Below are positions 1 to 6,000 of a stretch of DNA of 46,798 nucleotides, one piece after another. The stretch's first letter is position 1; each line of letters starts with the position of its first letter. This stretch comes from a virus (taxonomy: Duplodnaviria; Heunggongvirae; Uroviricota; Caudoviricetes), in IMG/VR virus record IMGVR_UViG_2870474514_000003. One strand, given 5' to 3'. The position numbers are program-made.

Positions 1-3000
1 ATGATTTTTAGGGATAGCTTGAGAGTATTACCTTATGGTCGAGTAGATAATGATTTCTTCCAGATAGAAGAAAGACGTTCATGGAATGCAGGGCGATATT
101 ATTGGTCTAATAGAAGGATTTTTGGTTATATTGGAATTACTCAATCCAGTAATAAAGAGCTGAAAGATAAGTCGGGGAGAGAGGGATTCATAAGAAACCA
201 GGCTGCAAGAGAACTGAAAACTATTATATCTAATTTGTTAACTGAACTTGCTGATAGATTTTTTGGTTCACGTTCTGATGACCGTAAAGAGCTTTTAGAA
301 CAAGTTAAGCGTGAAAAAGAGTTAAGAAAATCTGCTCAACAACAAGCTCGAAAATCAACACAAAAAAGTTTTTCAGAAGCTTTGAAGAATCAGACACCAG
401 TTCTTGATGCTTCCTTGGAGGCTGTTAAAAGGCTGAAAACTAAGCTTGATAAAACTGATGGTTCGTTAGATTTAAACTATCTTAAAATTATAGACAGTGA
501 TCTTACAAACTTAGATGCGTTGCGCAGTGAAATTAAAACGCCTATCAAACCTCCAAAACTTGGAATGTATGAAGAGAAATATAGAGACTACAGAGATAAA
601 TTTAATGAGTTCTCTGCGTATATTCTACAAATGAAGTTAGCAATTAATAAACTTGATTCTGAATTAAATAAACTTGAGCCTTCATTGTCAGCGAAAAATC
701 ACCTTGAAAAAAATCAAGGTATTATTAATTCTAAACTAACTAAGTTTAATAACACGATAGAGGAGAAGATACATTCTCTTTTAAAAAAATGGGCCGATGA
801 AATAAAGGTTGATCGAAGTGATTATTATGCTAAAACTATATCAGTTGTTGATTCAATAGATAATGATTCACAAATTGAAAATGTGTTTAATTTGCTCGAT
901 AGTTTATATGTTGAGTCAGTTGATACCCTAACTTTCAAATATCAATCAATAATAAAAGGTCTCGATAGATTATTTGAAGGTATAAACTTAGATTCAGCAT
1001 TCTCATTATCTGAAGAAGAACGCTCATATTTTGAAGAAAAAGCTAAAAGTTTAAACGCGCTTGCACAGTTAGGTATTAGTGTTGAGATAATATCTCATGA
1101 ACTTGAAGAAATGGATTCTATGGTAACCAGAGGACTAAACTCTCTTCCTACTTCTGTAAAAGAACACCCTGGTTTTTCATTGGCGTTAAATGCTCACAGA
1201 TCGCTTACTCAACAAATACGTTTCTTATCACCTTTGAAAATATCAGGTTATCAATCCAGGCAGAGAATAACTGGAAAAAATATCATGGATTATGTCCTGA
1301 AGTTCTTTGGGGAGCGTTTCGAACGGCAACGAATAACTATTGAATTTAGTGAAGAGTTTAAGCAAATCGCAATAACAGATATACCATCAAGGATCTATCC
1401 TGTTTTTACTAATATTATCAACAATGCAATGTATTGGGTCAGTCTGTCAAATAATAGGCTCATAAAGATTGGTTTTGTGAATTCTTTGGTTATCATAGCA
1501 AATTCTGGTCCGGCAATTGATACCGATGATATCCCGCGACTATTTGAACTATTTTATAGCAAAAGAGCAAATGGACATGGGGTAGGTCTGTATCTATGTC
1601 GAGAAAACCTTGCTGTTGCACATCATAAAATATGGTATTCAGAACCTGATGAAGGCGATAACTATTTAATAAAAGATGGCGCTAATTTTGTGATCCAGTT
1701 CAATGGAGTGGAGTTCTAATATGACAGTGGCAAATTATAATTCTCTTGTCCAGAAAACTTTCTGCGAAAATGCAATTCGTTCCGTTGTCATGATTGATGA
1801 CGATTTTCTGACGTATTCTGAATCAATCAGGGCGTTGAATAACGAAGTTGATTTAGACTACAACAAAATTGACTCATCTAAACGAGCCGCTACTCTTGAG
1901 AGCTTTTTTCAATCTAAAAATATGATTTGTGATGTTGACAATGGTTCTGTTAATTTCGATGTGGATCGGATTAGAAAATCAGATCTTATTATTGTAGATT
2001 ATCATCTTGATAATAATGCACCTGATAAAACACTTAAACTATTACAAGATTTGAAAGACTCCGATCATTTAAAAATGATTGTAATATATACTAGAGAGAA
2101 TTTAGAAACGGTTTGGATGCAGATATCATCGACTCTCAAAGGTGCTCTGGATATCAACAGCTTGATCATTGACTACGATAATGAAGATGTCCAAAGTTAT
2201 TGGGAAGACGTTGTATTACCGAACTTAAATGATAATGGTAATAAAGCTCTCACAAGAGATGAAACAATAGCCTATATTAAAGACAGTAAGCCTTGTAGAA
2301 GAATTAAAAGATTAATACATGATGATGCTGTGTTGGAGGATCAAAAGGATAAAAACTTCATTGCAAAAATGATTGCAGAATATGCTGTGTCTAGAAATGC
2401 AATTATTTCTAGCAACACATCTGGCAATGTCATTCGGGGTGATGAAAGCGGAGTAAAATGGATTCAATGTGGTAATATCTTTGTCTCCCTATTTCATAAG
2501 GTTCAAGATGATCATGAAAACGATGGAGATAGGATTTGGCAAACTCTCAATGATTCTCTCATTGAATGGAAACCATCTTATTATCAGTTAATAAAATCTG
2601 AAATTCAGAATGCAATCGAAGCTGAGGCTTTATCTTTTGTAAATCATTTGGCTAACGATCATTACGGTCAAGCTGCGTGGTTAAATGAGATATTAAAATC
2701 AGACTCGCCTGATATTAGATGTAGAAATATTGACTTTGTATTTGGTAATTTATCAGAAGAGCTTTATCAAAGACTTAAAAATAATAATACGCTGGATGAA
2801 TTTATCAAAAGTGTTTTTGATAGCTATTCAAATGAATACGCTAACAGCGGAGTTGCTGCATTGCTCCAATATTGCTCTTCAAAAATGGATCTGCCATCAA
2901 ATAATGATACTTATCACGAAATGTATCATGCTTTAAATATGAATTTGTCTTCAAAGAATTTTGAAGATGGTCATATTTCTACTGGCACTATTTTCTTTGA

Positions 3001-6000
3001 TACAGAGTCGAACAAATGGTATTTATGTGTATCTGCGGCATGTGATTTGGTTCCTACTCAGTGTAACGACCCTCACCATGTAAGATTAAGTCCGCACAGG
3101 CTCATTAAAGTTCTGGAGCTTTTTAACGCCAGTCAGAGTAAAGCATTGCCATTTGCTGAACATTCGAAATATATATATGTAATGCATAAAAATCAAAGAA
3201 AATATCTCTCTATTTTCGAAGGGGATAAAACGCTTCCTGTTGTTGATTATATGGTGGTGTTGAATCATGGAACAACAGTTGATGGCGAAGAAAAAATATT
3301 ATTTCTGCCGTGTTTTTAAGTAATATGGATGGCAACGTGCAAAATGTTCCTGTCCGACTCAAACTTAAATCTCAACTGAGAACTGGTTATGCAGAAAGAT
3401 ATCAGGCTATAGCGTCTCAGTATAGCTCAAGGATTGGTGTGGATTATTATGTATCAATGATGCTACCATAATTATTATATTTTAGGCGTGGTGATTTTTT
3501 TTCGCCATGCCTATTTTATATTTATCAACACAATGATGTTGTTTATTTTTGTTTAAGTCTTCTAAGCTTCATGCATTCTAATGAGAATAATAATAGAGTT
3601 GTGCTGTATATAAAGCCAGAGTTAGTTAATAACTTTAAATTTAATGCTTCAGGATTTTCACTGAGAAAGTGAAAGGCATAAACTAAGTATACAGCTAAAG
3701 TAGCCGTTCCAATTGTTGGTCCAATATCGCCTTGATCATGAGGTTCAAGGTTTACATTGAACTTGAAGATTAGCCATTCAAATCCCCAAGTAAAAAAAAC
3801 AACTAATATCATGGCTGCGAATAATTTCGCGATGTTATCTGCTGATGGATTCATCAGAACAGATTGTTTCTGAAAAAATTCACAAAGTGAGAGTCCGAAA
3901 AAAATAAAAAAAAGTGGTCTGGAACTAAATTTTTCAAAAACTTTGAATAGGGTTTCCATTTTCTTTACCTTCAGGATTATATTAGCTATTCTGATACTTA
4001 GGCTACCAGAGCATTTGATCTTTGAGCTTGAACGTAATCACTCCACCATTGCATCAAACTCTGTCGCTCTATCAGATATTCTGCACGATTGTATGCTGCG
4101 ATAATTTCATCTTTTTTCGAGTGGGCAAGCGCTGCCTCAAGAACTTCAGCTCTGAATTTACCAGACTCCTCTGCCGCTGTTCGTGCAATAGAACGCATAC
4201 CGTGAGCTACAAGCTCGCCTCCGAACCCCATTCGGATGATAGCTGCGTTGGCTGTTTGTTCATGCATATGATTAAGAGGCGCTTTTATGCTGGGGAAAAC
4301 CCATTCTCTATGCCCACTTATTGATTTCATTAATTCAAGGATGCGCAAAGCTTCTTTACTCAAAGGAACTTTGTGAAGCTTTTTCATTTTCATGAAATCA
4401 GCAGGAATGTTCCAAATGCTGTTGGTTGTATCAATATCAGACCACCTTGCGCGAACGGCTTCACCCGGACGAACCCATGTCAACAATTGCCATTCAATTA
4501 GCATACGTGTTTCCAACCGGATTGACGCATTCGTCAAAGATTCCATAAACCTTGGCAATTCGCTTGGGGGAAGGGCAGGCATATTTTGCTTTTTTGGTTT
4601 ACTGAATCTTTGACCAAGGTTGTCAGCCGGGTTGAACTCAATAAGTTCTTCAGTAGCTGCCCACCGGAAGATTTCATTCAGACGTGAAATGATACGGCGT
4701 AGAGTTTCCAATACGCCTCGTTGCTCAATAGGATCAAGGTGTTGTTTTAAGAGCTTAGGTCGGATCTCATTGATAGGGACATTACCCAGACCGGGAAAGA
4801 CATTTCTCTCTAAGCTGCGCCAGATGTCTGCTGCATGGTCTTGTGAGATACCTGATGTCTTTACCTTCTCATCTAACCATTTCCGCGCTACGGCTTGGAG
4901 AGTGTGCTCAGTAGCACTCTTTAATGCCTTCGCCTTATCGTTGTTATGGATTTGGGGATCAACACCATTTGCCAGAAAGGAGAGATATTCATCACGTAAG
5001 GCTCTGGCTCTTGCAAGGGTAAGGTGAGGATATGTCCCAAGGCTCATTTTGGTTCTTTTCTTGCTCACTGGTACTGCATACCTGAAATACCAATTTTTCT
5101 TGCCTCCTTTCGCCAAAGGAGCGATTCGTAGAATCAGACCATCACCGTCAAACAAGTTGATTTCTTTATCGGCTGGCTTGGTGCTTTTGATTTCAGTGTC
5201 AGTGAGCTTCTTAGCGATTTTTGCCATTTTGGGACCCTCGGTTTTTGGACCCTTCTTAGTGGGTCCCATTCAGGGTGCCATAACTCGTAGTTCTCAGCAA
5301 TTCTCACTGGACGACAATAGACGTAAAAAAGCCCGCAGAGCTTGTGCTGTGTGGGCTTAGTAGACTTCATTGAACTTCAAACAACTAAAAAGTGGTGGAG
5401 CTGGCGGGAGTTGAACCCATGTCCGAAATGTTATAACTAACTGAAATAATTGATTTCTTTTTCTTCAGTAGTTTCTGCGTGACTTTTACGGCTCCATTGA
5501 TGTGATTGCTGTGTCCAATGACGGTCCAATTTCCTAAATGTCATTCTAACGTTTTGTATGGTCTGACTTGTATTTTGTGTGGAAGATTTGAGAATAAATT
5601 CACTCTCAAAATGATCAGTGATGAGAGCGCCGCCTGAATCTTGGTATGTAATAACTAGCTTAGGACCATGAACGCTTTCTAATGTCTCACCCGCTAATAA
5701 TCTAAGATTAATCAAGTTATATAGTACAGTTGTTAATATAATTGGCAAGTGTATTATTGTGTTTTTTAAATTACCTTCTATTTGATGTTGAGGTAATATA
5801 TATTTCTCGTTGAAATTGAAATGGATGTTAAAACATTTATCGTTAATGATTATTTTTTTATGCTCAACGACTTCATAATTGAATAAATTAATTTTATTGT
5901 TTTTTGAGGCTCCCAGTTTTTCAATGATAGATGAAATGTCCTTTAAAGCATTGCTATAATTATATACCCATTTGTATTTTATATTTTGAGCTGAGCCATT

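What the first reader, a model, noticed from the sequence alone, without database searches (positions are those of the whole stretch)
1..3471. AT-rich cargo operon next to a P4-type integrase: sensor histidine kinase plus receiver-domain protein with a large unrecognised output domain
The first ORF is cut by the window edge but carries a full histidine-kinase catalytic core (H-box ISHELEEM, N-box NIINNAMYW, G2-box GHGVGLYLCRE) after a long coiled-coil-like region. The next gene starts 2 nt after its stop and encodes a receiver-like N-terminus (IDDDF acidic pair, VDYHL acceptor-like Asp, IVIYT) followed by about 400 aa with no motif I recognise. It is not fused to a DNA-binding output, and the operon sits in integrase-adjacent cargo at an ssrA-type site, where anti-phage systems often sit. 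The phospho-relay logic resembles the Detocs defence family, but no Hpt gene lies between the two genes, so it may be a variant or something new. A possible 48-codon ORF (3325-3471) follows with no clear ribosome-binding site.
Basis: partly seen in the sequence, partly recalled or inferred. Interest (0 to 1): 0.78.

Follow-up and report, generated by a model that had tools for sequence, protein, structure and literature searches.

The report
Decayed methylase-linked two-component defence remnant
These two genes are the broken leftovers of a three-gene mobile-element system (DNA cytosine methylase, MORC-like histidine kinase, receiver-domain protein) that was described in 2021 and has since been predicted to be anti-phage. 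In this strain the methylase and the kinase's sensor half are deleted and the receiver gene is frameshifted, so this is ordinary gene decay rather than a new system.

Summary
ORF1 (1-1719) has Pfam HEF_HK and HATPase_c. The next gene has Pfam Response_reg_2 plus about 400 residues that match no family.

The locus is not a new Detocs-like system. It belongs to the HEF_HK/Response_reg_2 pair defined by Bellieny-Rabelo et al. 2021. Intact loci from Pantoea, Citrobacter, Yersinia, Acidobacteria and an unnamed ssrA island are three-gene operons: C5 DNA methylase, a ~990-aa paraMORC-GHKL/histidine-kinase fusion, and a ~582-aa receiver protein.

The window copy is a remnant:
- The methylase and kinase residues 1-419 are missing. 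In identical E. coli genomes an IS3 element abuts the truncated kinase gene.
- The receiver gene carries a 1-nt deletion (A7 to A6, 3291-3296).
- The "48-codon ORF" is that gene's conserved C-terminal tail, now out of frame.

Nine E. coli alleles differ by 9 SNPs. All are non-synonymous, one is a stop, and there are also two frameshifts and an IS insertion. Long-term pN/pS is 0.10-0.15.

DefensePredictor (2026) already lists this exact protein as a predicted defence gene. A paralogous kinase+receiver pair cloned alone gave no defence. The closest validated system is Ambrosia (2025).

The parts
1..1719 (+). 5'-truncated remnant of the paraMORC-GHKL/histidine-kinase fusion gene. It corresponds to residues 420-991 of the 991-aa full-length protein and is annotated WP_000577254.1 'ATP-binding protein'.
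   Evidence: Alignment A3 shows that residues 1-419 are absent, including the GHKL motifs ELWKNAYDA, DNGCGM and GEKGIGRLS. The upstream frame runs into the IS3 end in AR436 and SE11.
1066..1242 (+). HEF_HK (DHp-like) domain with the phospho-acceptor histidine in ISHELEEM.
   Evidence: Pfam PF19191, aa 356-414, 26.1 bits against cut-off 24.1. The H and E are invariant in A3. The DHp+CA region aligns to the solved kinase ThkA 3a0r, E 3e-5.
1384..1659 (+). HATPase_c catalytic (CA) domain. N and G2 boxes are present. The G1 box reads ANSGPA instead of DxGxG.
   Evidence: Pfam PF02518, aa 462-553, E 1.8e-11. G1 comparison with the SE15 paralogue (DNGPG).
1721..3471 (+). Receiver-domain (Response_reg_2) gene, a frameshifted pseudogene. 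The intact allele encodes 582 aa.
   Evidence: RefSeq 'frameshifted' annotation in AR436 and SE11; intact P0001; DNA alignment A4.
1775..2245 (+). Response_reg_2 receiver domain (IDDDF acidic pair, acceptor Asp in VDYHL, Thr in IVIYT).
   Evidence: Pfam PF19192, E 4e-31. D26, D27, D93, T124 and K260 are invariant in 44 homologues.
2504..3471 (+). Family-specific output region (intact residues ~262-582): an all-helical domain followed by a beta-rich domain with invariant C441, R554, G573 and others. Function unknown.
3291..3296 (+). A6 homopolymer, the site of the 1-nt deletion (A7 in intact alleles). It shifts the frame after Lys525 and gives a stop at 3317-3319.
   Evidence: Alignment A4. 77 of 559 complete E. 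coli genomes with the locus have this allele.
3298..3471 (+). Out-of-frame C-terminal tail of the receiver gene (intact residues ~527-582). It carries a 3-nt insertion at 3443-3445.
   Evidence: The tail holds the invariant or near-invariant positions Q552, L553, R554, R571, G573 and D575.
3483..3513 (+). Terminator-like hairpin just after the true stop codon of the receiver gene.
   Evidence: 12-pair stem followed by a T-run.
3543..3959 (-). 138-aa hydrophobic hypothetical protein. It is island cargo in E. coli only and is not part of the conserved system.
   Evidence: It is absent from the intact locus L004.
3998..5269 (-). P4-type tyrosine integrase of the ssrA island.
   Evidence: Pfam Arm-DNA-bind_3, Phage_int_M and Phage_integrase; NCBIfam PRK09692, E 5e-132.
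5393..5495 (-). 3' 103 nt of ssrA (tmRNA), the attachment-site side of the island. The rest of ssrA is displaced by the prophage.
   Evidence: Rfam tmRNA partial hit, 23 bits. Intact ssrA lies at the equivalent 5393-5755 in SE11.

Best explanation
Window 1-3471 is an inactivated remnant of a three-gene mobile-element system: a C5 DNA cytosine methylase, a ~990-aa soluble protein, and a ~582-aa receiver protein. The ~990-aa protein has an N-terminal paraMORC-type GHKL ATPase, a long helical linker, the HEF_HK phospho-acceptor domain and a HATPase_c kinase domain. The receiver protein has a Response_reg_2 domain, a helical domain and a beta-rich C-terminal domain.

Shown here for E. coli:
- The island sits at ssrA.
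- A deletion that ends at an IS3 element removed the methylase gene and kinase codons 1-~380.
- What is left starts at an internal Met (residue 420).
- In this strain's lineage the receiver gene then lost one A from an A7 run. That cuts off the last ~56 residues, which contain invariant positions.
- The genes are evolving without purifying selection.

Inferred for the intact system:
- The methylase marks host DNA.
- The GHKL/MORC-like module, by analogy with MutL/MORC ATP-driven DNA clamps, senses foreign or unmodified DNA or an infection cue.
- This switches on autophosphorylation of the HEF_HK histidine, and the phosphate passes to Asp93 of the receiver protein.
- Phosphorylation releases the family-specific C-terminal domain as the effector, possibly a MazF/CcdB-like toxin fold. 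In four-gene variants an HNH nuclease is added.

Losing the methylase together with the sensor half in one deletion is what would be expected if an active kinase/receiver module is harmful without its methylase.
For: Family identity:
- Pfam HEF_HK, HATPase_c and Response_reg_2 all score above threshold.
- These families were defined on this gene pair, with 91.6% linkage and a C5 methylase upstream (PMC8011034).

Intact architecture:
- Methylase, ~990-aa kinase with HATPase_c_3+HEF_HK+HATPase_c, and ~580-640-aa receiver protein are overlapping or adjacent in L004 (ssrA island next to smpB), L005 Pantoea, L007 Citrobacter ICE, L017 Acidobacteria and L019 Yersinia.
- In L016 Acinetobacter the kinase-receiver pair is convergent with a methylase and an XRE gene, a type II R-M-like layout.

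Truncation:
- Alignment A3 shows the window ORF1 equals residues 420-991.
- IS3 abuts the remnant and has no target-site duplication (TCT on one side, CGC on the other).
- The junction is present in 484 genomes.
- No complete E. coli genome has the orthologous methylase plus kinase N-terminus (0 with >=80% cover).

Frameshift:
- A6 in the window against A7 in intact alleles.
- 77 genomes carry the window allele and 482 differ at one or two positions; every sampled one had the longer tract.
- The lost tail holds invariant L553 and R554 and near-invariant Q552, R571, G573 and D575.
- A terminator hairpin follows the true stop, not the premature one.

Decay:
- Nine E. coli alleles differ by 9 SNPs. 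All are non-synonymous, including W479* in the kinase remnant.
- There is also a second, different frameshift (O91) and an IS insertion in the receiver gene (O103; the same break point as P0004, which has 1605 member sequences).
- Long-term pN/pS against L004 is 0.10 (kinase) and 0.15 (receiver). At that ratio, 9 of 9 non-synonymous has a probability of about 1e-5 to 1e-4 (my arithmetic).

Defence link:
- DefensePredictor lists WP_000577254.1 (log-odds 6.6) and the intact receiver protein WP_000214990.1 (12.0) as predicted novel defence genes.
- Ambrosia, a methylase + GHKL-kinase + REC + HNH system, is validated, and its kinase N-terminus aligns to the full-length orthologue (E 2e-10).
Against: - Most E. 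coli carriers keep both reading frames open (572 aa and 582 aa), so residual activity of the truncated pair in those strains is not excluded.
- Bellieny-Rabelo et al. count 34 of 222 kinases without the N-terminal GHKL as a natural 'group 2' architecture.
- No expression or phenotype data exist for this locus.
- The mechanism of the intact system is inference. The only direct test of a relative, the SE15-type kinase + receiver pair cloned without its methylase and HNH gene, gave no defence against 24 phages.
- In this clade the kinase G1 box lacks the canonical Asp.
Confidence: 0.85

Rival explanations
1. The truncated kinase (HEF_HK + HATPase_c only) and the receiver protein still form a working cytoplasmic two-component pair in E. 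coli. This would be a 'group 2' architecture, with the window strain being a recent loss-of-function variant.
For: - Both ORFs are open in most carriers. 482 of 559 genomes lack the window's exact allele at the frameshift site, and O26, O111 and UC4315 are annotated intact.
- The DHp and CA motifs are retained.
- Kinases without the GHKL domain exist in the family.
- DefensePredictor scores the 572-aa fragment above its threshold.
Against: - All 9 SNPs among nine alleles are non-synonymous, one of them a stop.
- At least three independent disruptions of the receiver gene and one of the kinase remnant are seen.
- The sensor ATPase and the methylase partner are gone.
- In the window itself the receiver gene is frameshifted.
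Confidence: 0.08
2. This is a new Detocs-like anti-phage phospho-relay lacking the Hpt step.
For: A kinase + receiver pair with a non-DNA-binding output on an integrase island. It shows a general resemblance to the Detocs logic.
Against: - No Hpt gene; the two genes are 1 nt apart.
- No PADLOC model matches either protein.
- The output has no PNP or other recognised effector domain.
- The full-length kinase has a paraMORC GHKL N-terminus and a methylase partner.
- The family was already defined in 2021.
Confidence: 0.02
3. The A6/A7 difference is a sequencing error, a phase-variable switch or a programmed frameshift site, so the full-length receiver protein is still made.
For: The change lies in a homopolymeric A tract. 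The downstream frame is fully open to the normal stop.
Against: - The same allele is present in 77 independently finished genomes, so it is not an assembly error.
- The tract is short (6-7 nt).
- The allele travels with other derived changes (N118K, G448C, a 3-nt insertion) in a clonal pattern.
- The surrounding codons do not form a canonical slippery heptamer (sequence). This last point is inference.
Confidence: 0.03
4. It is a conventional core-genome two-component system that regulates transcription.
For: Generic kinase and receiver motifs. NCBIfam gives weak partial hits to AtoS, PhoR and similar kinases.
Against: - It is present in only ~10% of complete E. coli genomes, inside an ssrA island.
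- All NCBIfam hits are far below their cut-offs and cover only the CA domain.
- No DNA-binding domain was found by Pfam or by fold search.
Confidence: 0.02

Closest known systems
HEF_HK / Response_reg_2 'two-component system-like' pair (Bellieny-Rabelo, Pretorius & Moleleki, Genome Biol Evol 2021, PMC8011034; Pfam PF19191 and PF19192)
   Same: The same two Pfam families and the same adjacent gene order. Orthologues have the same C5-methylase-upstream context and paraMORC (HATPase_c_3) N-terminus. E. coli members were in that study.
   Different: The window copy lacks the methylase and the HATPase_c_3 half, and its receiver gene is frameshifted. The paper tested no function and treated the receiver protein's C-terminal ~400 aa as having no known domain.
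Ambrosia phage-defence system of Pseudomonas aeruginosa (bioRxiv 10.1101/2025.09.30.679545)
   Same: A DNA methylase, a soluble GHKL(HATPase_c_3)+HATPase_c kinase-like protein and a REC protein in one cluster. All are required for defence, including the REC Asp and the N-terminal GHKL Asn. The AbrB N-terminus aligns with the full-length orthologue (27% identity, E 2e-10; second segment E 1e-5).
   Different: Ambrosia has five genes, including an XRE regulator, an N6-adenine methylase, a 209-aa REC protein and a separate HNH nuclease. AbrC is not a Response_reg_2 protein: no Pfam hit and hhalign probability 0.2. The family here uses a C5 methylase and a 580-aa REC protein with its own output domain, usually with no separate nuclease.
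DefensePredictor predictions and tested units 2CM2 and 2CMP (Science 2026, PMC13092281)
   Same: The exact window protein WP_000577254.1 and the intact receiver protein WP_000214990.1 are listed as 'Predicted novel defense gene'. The SE15-type paralogous pair (WP_000236931.1 + WP_000886597.1) was cloned.
   Different: The cloned pair was tested without its methylase and HNH gene and was not defensive against 24 phages. The window-type pair was not cloned.
paraMORC GHKL ATPases of restriction-modification operons (Iyer, Abhiman & Aravind 2008, PMC2292703)
   Same: An N-terminal GHKL ATPase linked to cytosine methylases on mobile DNA. PADLOC's REase_II model PDLC03419 matches the GHKL part of the full-length orthologues.
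   Different: Those families pair with helicases or carry nuclease or TIR C-termini. None is described there with a histidine-kinase core and a receiver partner (0 mentions of 'receiver'). The GHKL part is deleted in the window.
Detocs (DtcA hybrid kinase, DtcB Hpt, DtcC REC-PNP)
   Different: No Hpt gene, no PNP domain, no PADLOC hit, a different kinase N-terminus and a methylase partner.
MazF/Kid/CcdB toxin fold

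Membership tests
HEF_HK/Response_reg_2 pair (PF19191 + PF19192) | HEF_HK phospho-acceptor domain followed by C-terminal HATPase_c | tested here: met
   HEF_HK 26.1 bits (cut-off 24.1) and HATPase_c 44.9 bits (cut-off 26.4).
HEF_HK/Response_reg_2 pair (PF19191 + PF19192) | Adjacent gene encoding a Response_reg_2 protein with conserved DD, D, T and K residues | tested here: met
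   109 bits against cut-off 27. The genes are 1 nt apart. Invariant D26, D27, D93, T124 and K260.
HEF_HK/Response_reg_2 pair (PF19191 + PF19192) | N-terminal HATPase_c_3 (paraMORC) domain on the kinase (the majority 'group 1' architecture) | tested here: not met
   Absent from the window ORF. Present in the orthologues L004 and L008. Alignment A3 shows residues 1-419 are missing.
HEF_HK/Response_reg_2 pair (PF19191 + PF19192) | C5 DNA methylase gene next to the pair | tested here: not met
   No methylase in the window or upstream in identical genomes. No orthologous copy in any complete E. coli genome. Present in L004, L005, L007, L016, L017 and L019.
HEF_HK/Response_reg_2 pair (PF19191 + PF19192) | Full-length (~580-aa) receiver protein with the conserved C-terminal tail | tested here: not met
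   Frameshift after codon 525. The tail carries invariant residues.
Detocs | Separate Hpt phosphotransfer protein (DtcB) | tested here: not met
   There is no ORF between the two genes, which are 1 nt apart. Neither the window locus nor the intact loci have an Hpt Pfam hit.
Detocs | REC protein fused to a PNP (or other known Detocs) effector domain | tested here: not met
   No Pfam or PADLOC match in the ~400-aa output region.
Detocs | Hybrid sensor kinase DtcA with an N-terminal TPR-type sensor | tested here: not met
   The full-length orthologue's N-terminus is HATPase_c_3. It has no TPR and no REC.
Ambrosia | AbrB-like GHKL + HATPase_c protein | tested here: inconclusive
   The full-length orthologue aligns with the AbrB N-terminus (E 2e-10) and the RVxPYG region (E 1e-5). 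Only the first ~400 aa of AbrB were available. The window fragment lacks the GHKL part.
Ambrosia | Short AbrC-type REC protein | tested here: not met
   hhalign of A1 against AbrC gives probability 0.2. AbrC is 209 aa, against 582 aa here.
Ambrosia | XRE regulator, N6-adenine methylase and HNH nuclease in the cluster | tested here: not met
   None is in the window. Orthologues have a C5 methylase and no nuclease. Only the SE15-type paralogue has an HNH_2 gene.
Canonical two-component system | H, N, G1 and G2 boxes of the kinase core | tested here: inconclusive
   H, N and G2 are present. G1 reads ANSGPA in this clade, where the SE15 paralogue has DNGPG. The core aligns to solved kinases. ATP binding was not tested.
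Canonical two-component system | DNA-binding output domain on the response regulator | tested here: not met
MazF/CcdB toxin superfamily (receiver protein C-terminal domain) | Shared fold | tested here: inconclusive
MazF/CcdB toxin superfamily (receiver protein C-terminal domain) | Sequence-profile relationship or catalytic residues | tested here: not met
   A Pfam scan of 16 members gave no PemK or CcdB hit. hhalign against E. coli MazF (sequence entered from memory) gave probability 0.2.

The most novel reading that the evidence does not exclude
The intact relatives (C5 methylase + paraMORC-histidine kinase + Response_reg_2 protein) could be a self-contained, restriction-modification-like immune system. 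In this reading a MORC-type DNA-sensing ATPase drives a His-Asp phosphotransfer that unleashes a previously unrecognised MazF/CcdB-like toxin domain found only behind this receiver domain. The E. coli remnant would then be a natural 'disarmed' copy, and strains with both reading frames open might retain a constitutive or rewired kinase-to-effector signal.
Probability: 0.15. Interest if true: 0.6.

Novelty: already known. Interest (0 to 1): 0.2.

Why it matters
For this window it matters little. It is a pseudogenised island remnant that should be annotated as such: one truncated gene and one frameshifted gene, not three ORFs.

The wider family still has no demonstrated function. It comprises at least 625 clusters at 50% identity. 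Three observations from this work define a tractable experiment on an intact relative rather than on this locus:
- The core is methylase + GHKL-kinase + receiver protein, usually with no separate nuclease.
- The ~320-aa output module occurs only in this architecture.
- The kinase/receiver pair alone failed in a published screen.

The E. coli remnant also illustrates how a methylase-linked module can be lost, with the antidote and the sensor removed in one deletion.

Tried and rejected
- PADLOC on the window proteins gave no meaningful hit.
- NCBIfam gave only sub-threshold CA-domain hits.
- Foldseek against the PDB found nothing at E<=1e-3, with either the full receiver-protein model or the C-terminal model.
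- The afdb50 fold library was unavailable.
- An HMM of the output region against PDB sequences gave zero hits.
- A Pfam scan of 16 output regions at E<=10 gave only scattered singletons.
- hhalign of the receiver-protein profile against Ambrosia AbrC gave none.
- I looked for other architectures carrying the output module. A word-indexed search and a full HMM search of 1.84 billion representatives found only Response_reg_2 proteins and fragments.
- I looked for an orthologous intact methylase + kinase N-terminus in 5,426 complete E. coli genomes and found none. There is only a ~23%-identical (receiver-protein level) paralogous four-gene locus, in up to 212 genomes.
- I searched the literature for experimental follow-up of the 2021 paper and found none.
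- Programmed frameshifting or phase variation at the A tract was considered and judged unlikely.
- The coiled-coil claim was not tested.

Full report
**What is in the sequence**

Window 1-3471 is AT-rich (32-35% G+C, against 45-60% further along). It holds two co-oriented genes.

It scores above Pfam's curated thresholds for HEF_HK (aa 356-414) and HATPase_c (aa 462-553). Its DHp+CA core aligns with solved sensor kinases such as ThkA.

The next gene starts at 1721, one base after the ORF1 stop. It has Pfam Response_reg_2 (E 4e-31). The acidic pair, acceptor Asp, Thr and Lys are invariant across 44 homologues. The rest of that protein matches nothing in Pfam, NCBIfam, PADLOC or PDB sequences.

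Downstream lie:
- a 138-aa hydrophobic ORF on the minus strand;
- a P4-type integrase (3998-5269, minus strand);
- a 103-nt 3' fragment of ssrA (5393-5495, minus strand).

**Where it comes from**

The first 5.4 kb is 100% identical to many E. coli chromosomes. About 560 of 5,426 complete genomes carry the locus.

In SE11, which lacks the window's IS10 and the prophage beyond it, the order is: ygaQ' pseudogene, IS3, ORF1, receiver gene, hypothetical gene, integrase, ssrA, smpB. In the window, ssrA is split by a lambdoid prophage and an IS10, and no complete tmRNA gene is present.

**The family is already described**

HEF_HK (PF19191) and Response_reg_2 (PF19192) were created by Bellieny-Rabelo, Pretorius and Moleleki (2021) from exactly this gene pair. 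They reported:
- 91.6% linkage across 644 regions;
- a C5 cytosine methylase usually upstream;
- frequent HNH_2 or Vsr genes nearby;
- an N-terminal HATPase_c_3 (paraMORC-type GHKL) domain on 83% of the kinases.

They proposed a cytoplasmic two-component-like system tied to restriction-modification and tested no function. E. coli members were among their examples.

**What the intact system looks like**

I recovered intact loci through homologues of the receiver protein.
- L004, an ssrA island with the same type of integrase next to smpB, has a C5 methylase (389 aa), a 991-aa protein with HATPase_c_3 + HEF_HK + HATPase_c, and a 582-aa receiver protein. The genes overlap or abut.
- The same three-gene operon occurs in Pantoea, a Citrobacter ICE, an Acidobacteria ICE and a Yersinia integrase island.
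- In Acinetobacter the kinase-receiver pair is Tn7-like cargo, convergent with a methylase and an XRE gene. That layout is typical of type II R-M systems.
- None of these loci has a separate nuclease.
- A paralogous E. coli locus, present in up to 212 genomes (for example SE15), adds an HNH_2 / type IV-like endonuclease. Its receiver protein is homologous over its full length, at 23% identity.

**The window copy is a remnant**

Alignment with full-length proteins shows that ORF1 equals residues 420-991. The whole GHKL ATPase and about 280 further residues are absent.

In identical genomes the reading frame continues 40 codons upstream with no start codon, until it hits the right end of IS3. 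IS3 has different 3-bp flanks on its two sides (TCT and CGC) and abuts the truncated chromosomal ygaQ. This indicates a deletion rather than a simple insertion.
- The junction is present in 484 genomes.
- O111 has lost the IS3 secondarily but has the same truncation point.
- No complete E. coli genome contains the orthologous methylase and kinase N-terminus.

RefSeq annotates 1721-3471 as one frameshifted pseudogene. Intact E. coli alleles encode 582 aa. The window has A6 instead of A7 at 3291-3296 and a 3-nt insertion at 3443-3445. The lost tail contains invariant L553 and R554 and near-invariant Q552, R571, G573 and D575. A terminator-like hairpin follows the true stop at 3471. The frameshift allele is in 77 of 559 genomes, so it is real and lineage-specific.

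**Relaxed selection**

Between the window and L004, pN/pS is 0.10 for the kinase and 0.15 for the receiver gene, so the family is normally under purifying selection.

Among nine E. coli alleles there are 9 SNPs in 1-3471:
- All 9 are non-synonymous, including W479* in the kinase remnant of a chicken isolate and N118K at a near-invariant receiver position in the window lineage.
- There are also two different frameshifts.
- There is an IS3-family insertion at receiver codon ~454. The same break point explains a 453-aa "partial" protein with 1605 member sequences.

Under the long-term ratio, 9 of 9 non-synonymous changes has a probability of roughly 1e-5 to 1e-4. Under neutrality it is about 0.13 (my arithmetic).

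**The output domain**

An AlphaFold2 model of the intact protein is confident (pLDDT 86, pTM 0.79). It shows:
- a REC fold with a large helical insertion before beta-5/Lys260;
- an all-helical domain (~268-410);
- a beta-rich domain ending in a helix (~411-567).

The module occurs only behind Response_reg_2. This held in the word-indexed search and in a full HMM search of 1.84 billion representatives, which gave 625 clusters. The top 150 have the same architecture or are fragments, and the longer variants carry only Response_reg_2.

**How the intact system most likely works (inference)**

The obligatory methylase partner, the type II R-M-like layouts and carriage on mobile elements point to an R-M-like conflict system. 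In this model:
1. The methylase marks self DNA.
2. The MORC/MutL-like GHKL module senses DNA state or infection.
3. The kinase core phosphorylates Asp93 of the receiver protein.
4. The receiver protein's private C-terminal module is the effector, helped by an HNH nuclease in some variants.

Supporting analogy comes from Ambrosia in P. aeruginosa (XRE, N6 methylase, GHKL-kinase AbrB, REC AbrC, HNH AbrD). It is a validated defence system in which the N-terminal GHKL Asn, the REC Asp and the nuclease are all required. The AbrB N-terminus aligns with the full-length orthologue here (E 2e-10). AbrC, however, is a different, short REC protein.

There are two cautions. DefensePredictor lists the very window protein and the intact receiver protein as predicted defence genes. 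The SE15-type kinase+receiver pair, cloned without its methylase and HNH gene, did not protect against 24 phages. That result could mean the extra genes are needed or that the prediction is wrong. In addition, the kinase G1 box in this clade lacks the canonical Asp.

**Verdict**

The Detocs-like or novel interpretation is not supported.

The locus is a decaying remnant of a known, functionally uncharacterised, probably defence-related methylase-kinase-receiver system. Novelty: already known. Interest is low for this window. The intact family remains a reasonable experimental target.

Noticed in passing
window 6090-7420 and 32118-33448: Two 100% identical IS10 (ISVsa5) copies lie in inverted orientation, each with its RNA-OUT. 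They bracket 24.7 kb of the lambdoid prophage. This may be an IS10-mediated inversion or a composite element.
   Followed up: no
window 5393-5495 (minus strand) and 7614-8789 (minus strand): ssrA is split. Only its 3' 103 nt remain next to the P4-type integrase. A prophage with its own integrase (7614-8789) and an IS10 occupy the position where SE11 has the rest of ssrA and smpB, so two elements sit in tandem at ssrA.
   Followed up: partly
window ~1450-1470 (ORF1 aa ~485-492, IIANSGPA): The G1 box of the kinase CA domain reads ANSGPA in the window clade, including the intact orthologues. The SE15 paralogue has the canonical DNGPG. ATP binding by the C-terminal kinase domain may be weakened in this clade.
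   Followed up: no
L008 (E. coli SE15, NC_013654.1) 8102-15294: There is a paralogous, apparently intact four-gene locus on an ICE-like element: C5 methylase, 989-aa GHKL-kinase, 607-aa Response_reg_2 protein and an HNH_2 / type IV-like endonuclease. A distantly similar methylase/ATP-binding-protein junction matched in 212 complete E. coli genomes; only SE15 was inspected. Its kinase+receiver pair is DefensePredictor unit 2CM2, which was not defensive when cloned alone.
   Followed up: partly
L004 3128-3715 and L005 5127-5711: A ~195-aa gene with no Pfam match sits just upstream of the methylase on the same strand in two intact loci (51% identity). It is absent from the Citrobacter locus. It could be an accessory or regulatory gene.
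   Followed up: partly
L013 (E. coli O103 WL1467) 638-3700; L020: An IS3-family (IS1203-like) element is inserted in the receiver gene at codon ~454. The 453-aa 'partial' protein cluster P0004 (1605 member sequences) ends at a contig end at the same point. This suggests the insertion is common in draft E. coli assemblies.
   Followed up: partly
L012 (E. coli O111:H8) 100-235: IS3 is absent but the kinase truncation point is unchanged (junction GAGATG-CG-CGCAGGGG). This is a secondary deletion that removed IS3 and 6 nt of its left flank.
   Followed up: yes
window 3543-3959 (minus strand): A 138-aa hydrophobic ORF lies between the receiver gene and the integrase. It is conserved in the E. coli island but absent from the intact L004 island, and it has no family match.
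   Followed up: no
window 46557-46755: A full-length Rfam IS009 RNA match (229 bits) lies at the far end of the window.
   Followed up: no
window 5325-5402 (minus strand): A partial, far sub-threshold match to the IsrM sRNA model (53 bits against a gathering score of 376) lies between the integrase start and the ssrA fragment. It is probably not meaningful.
   Followed up: no
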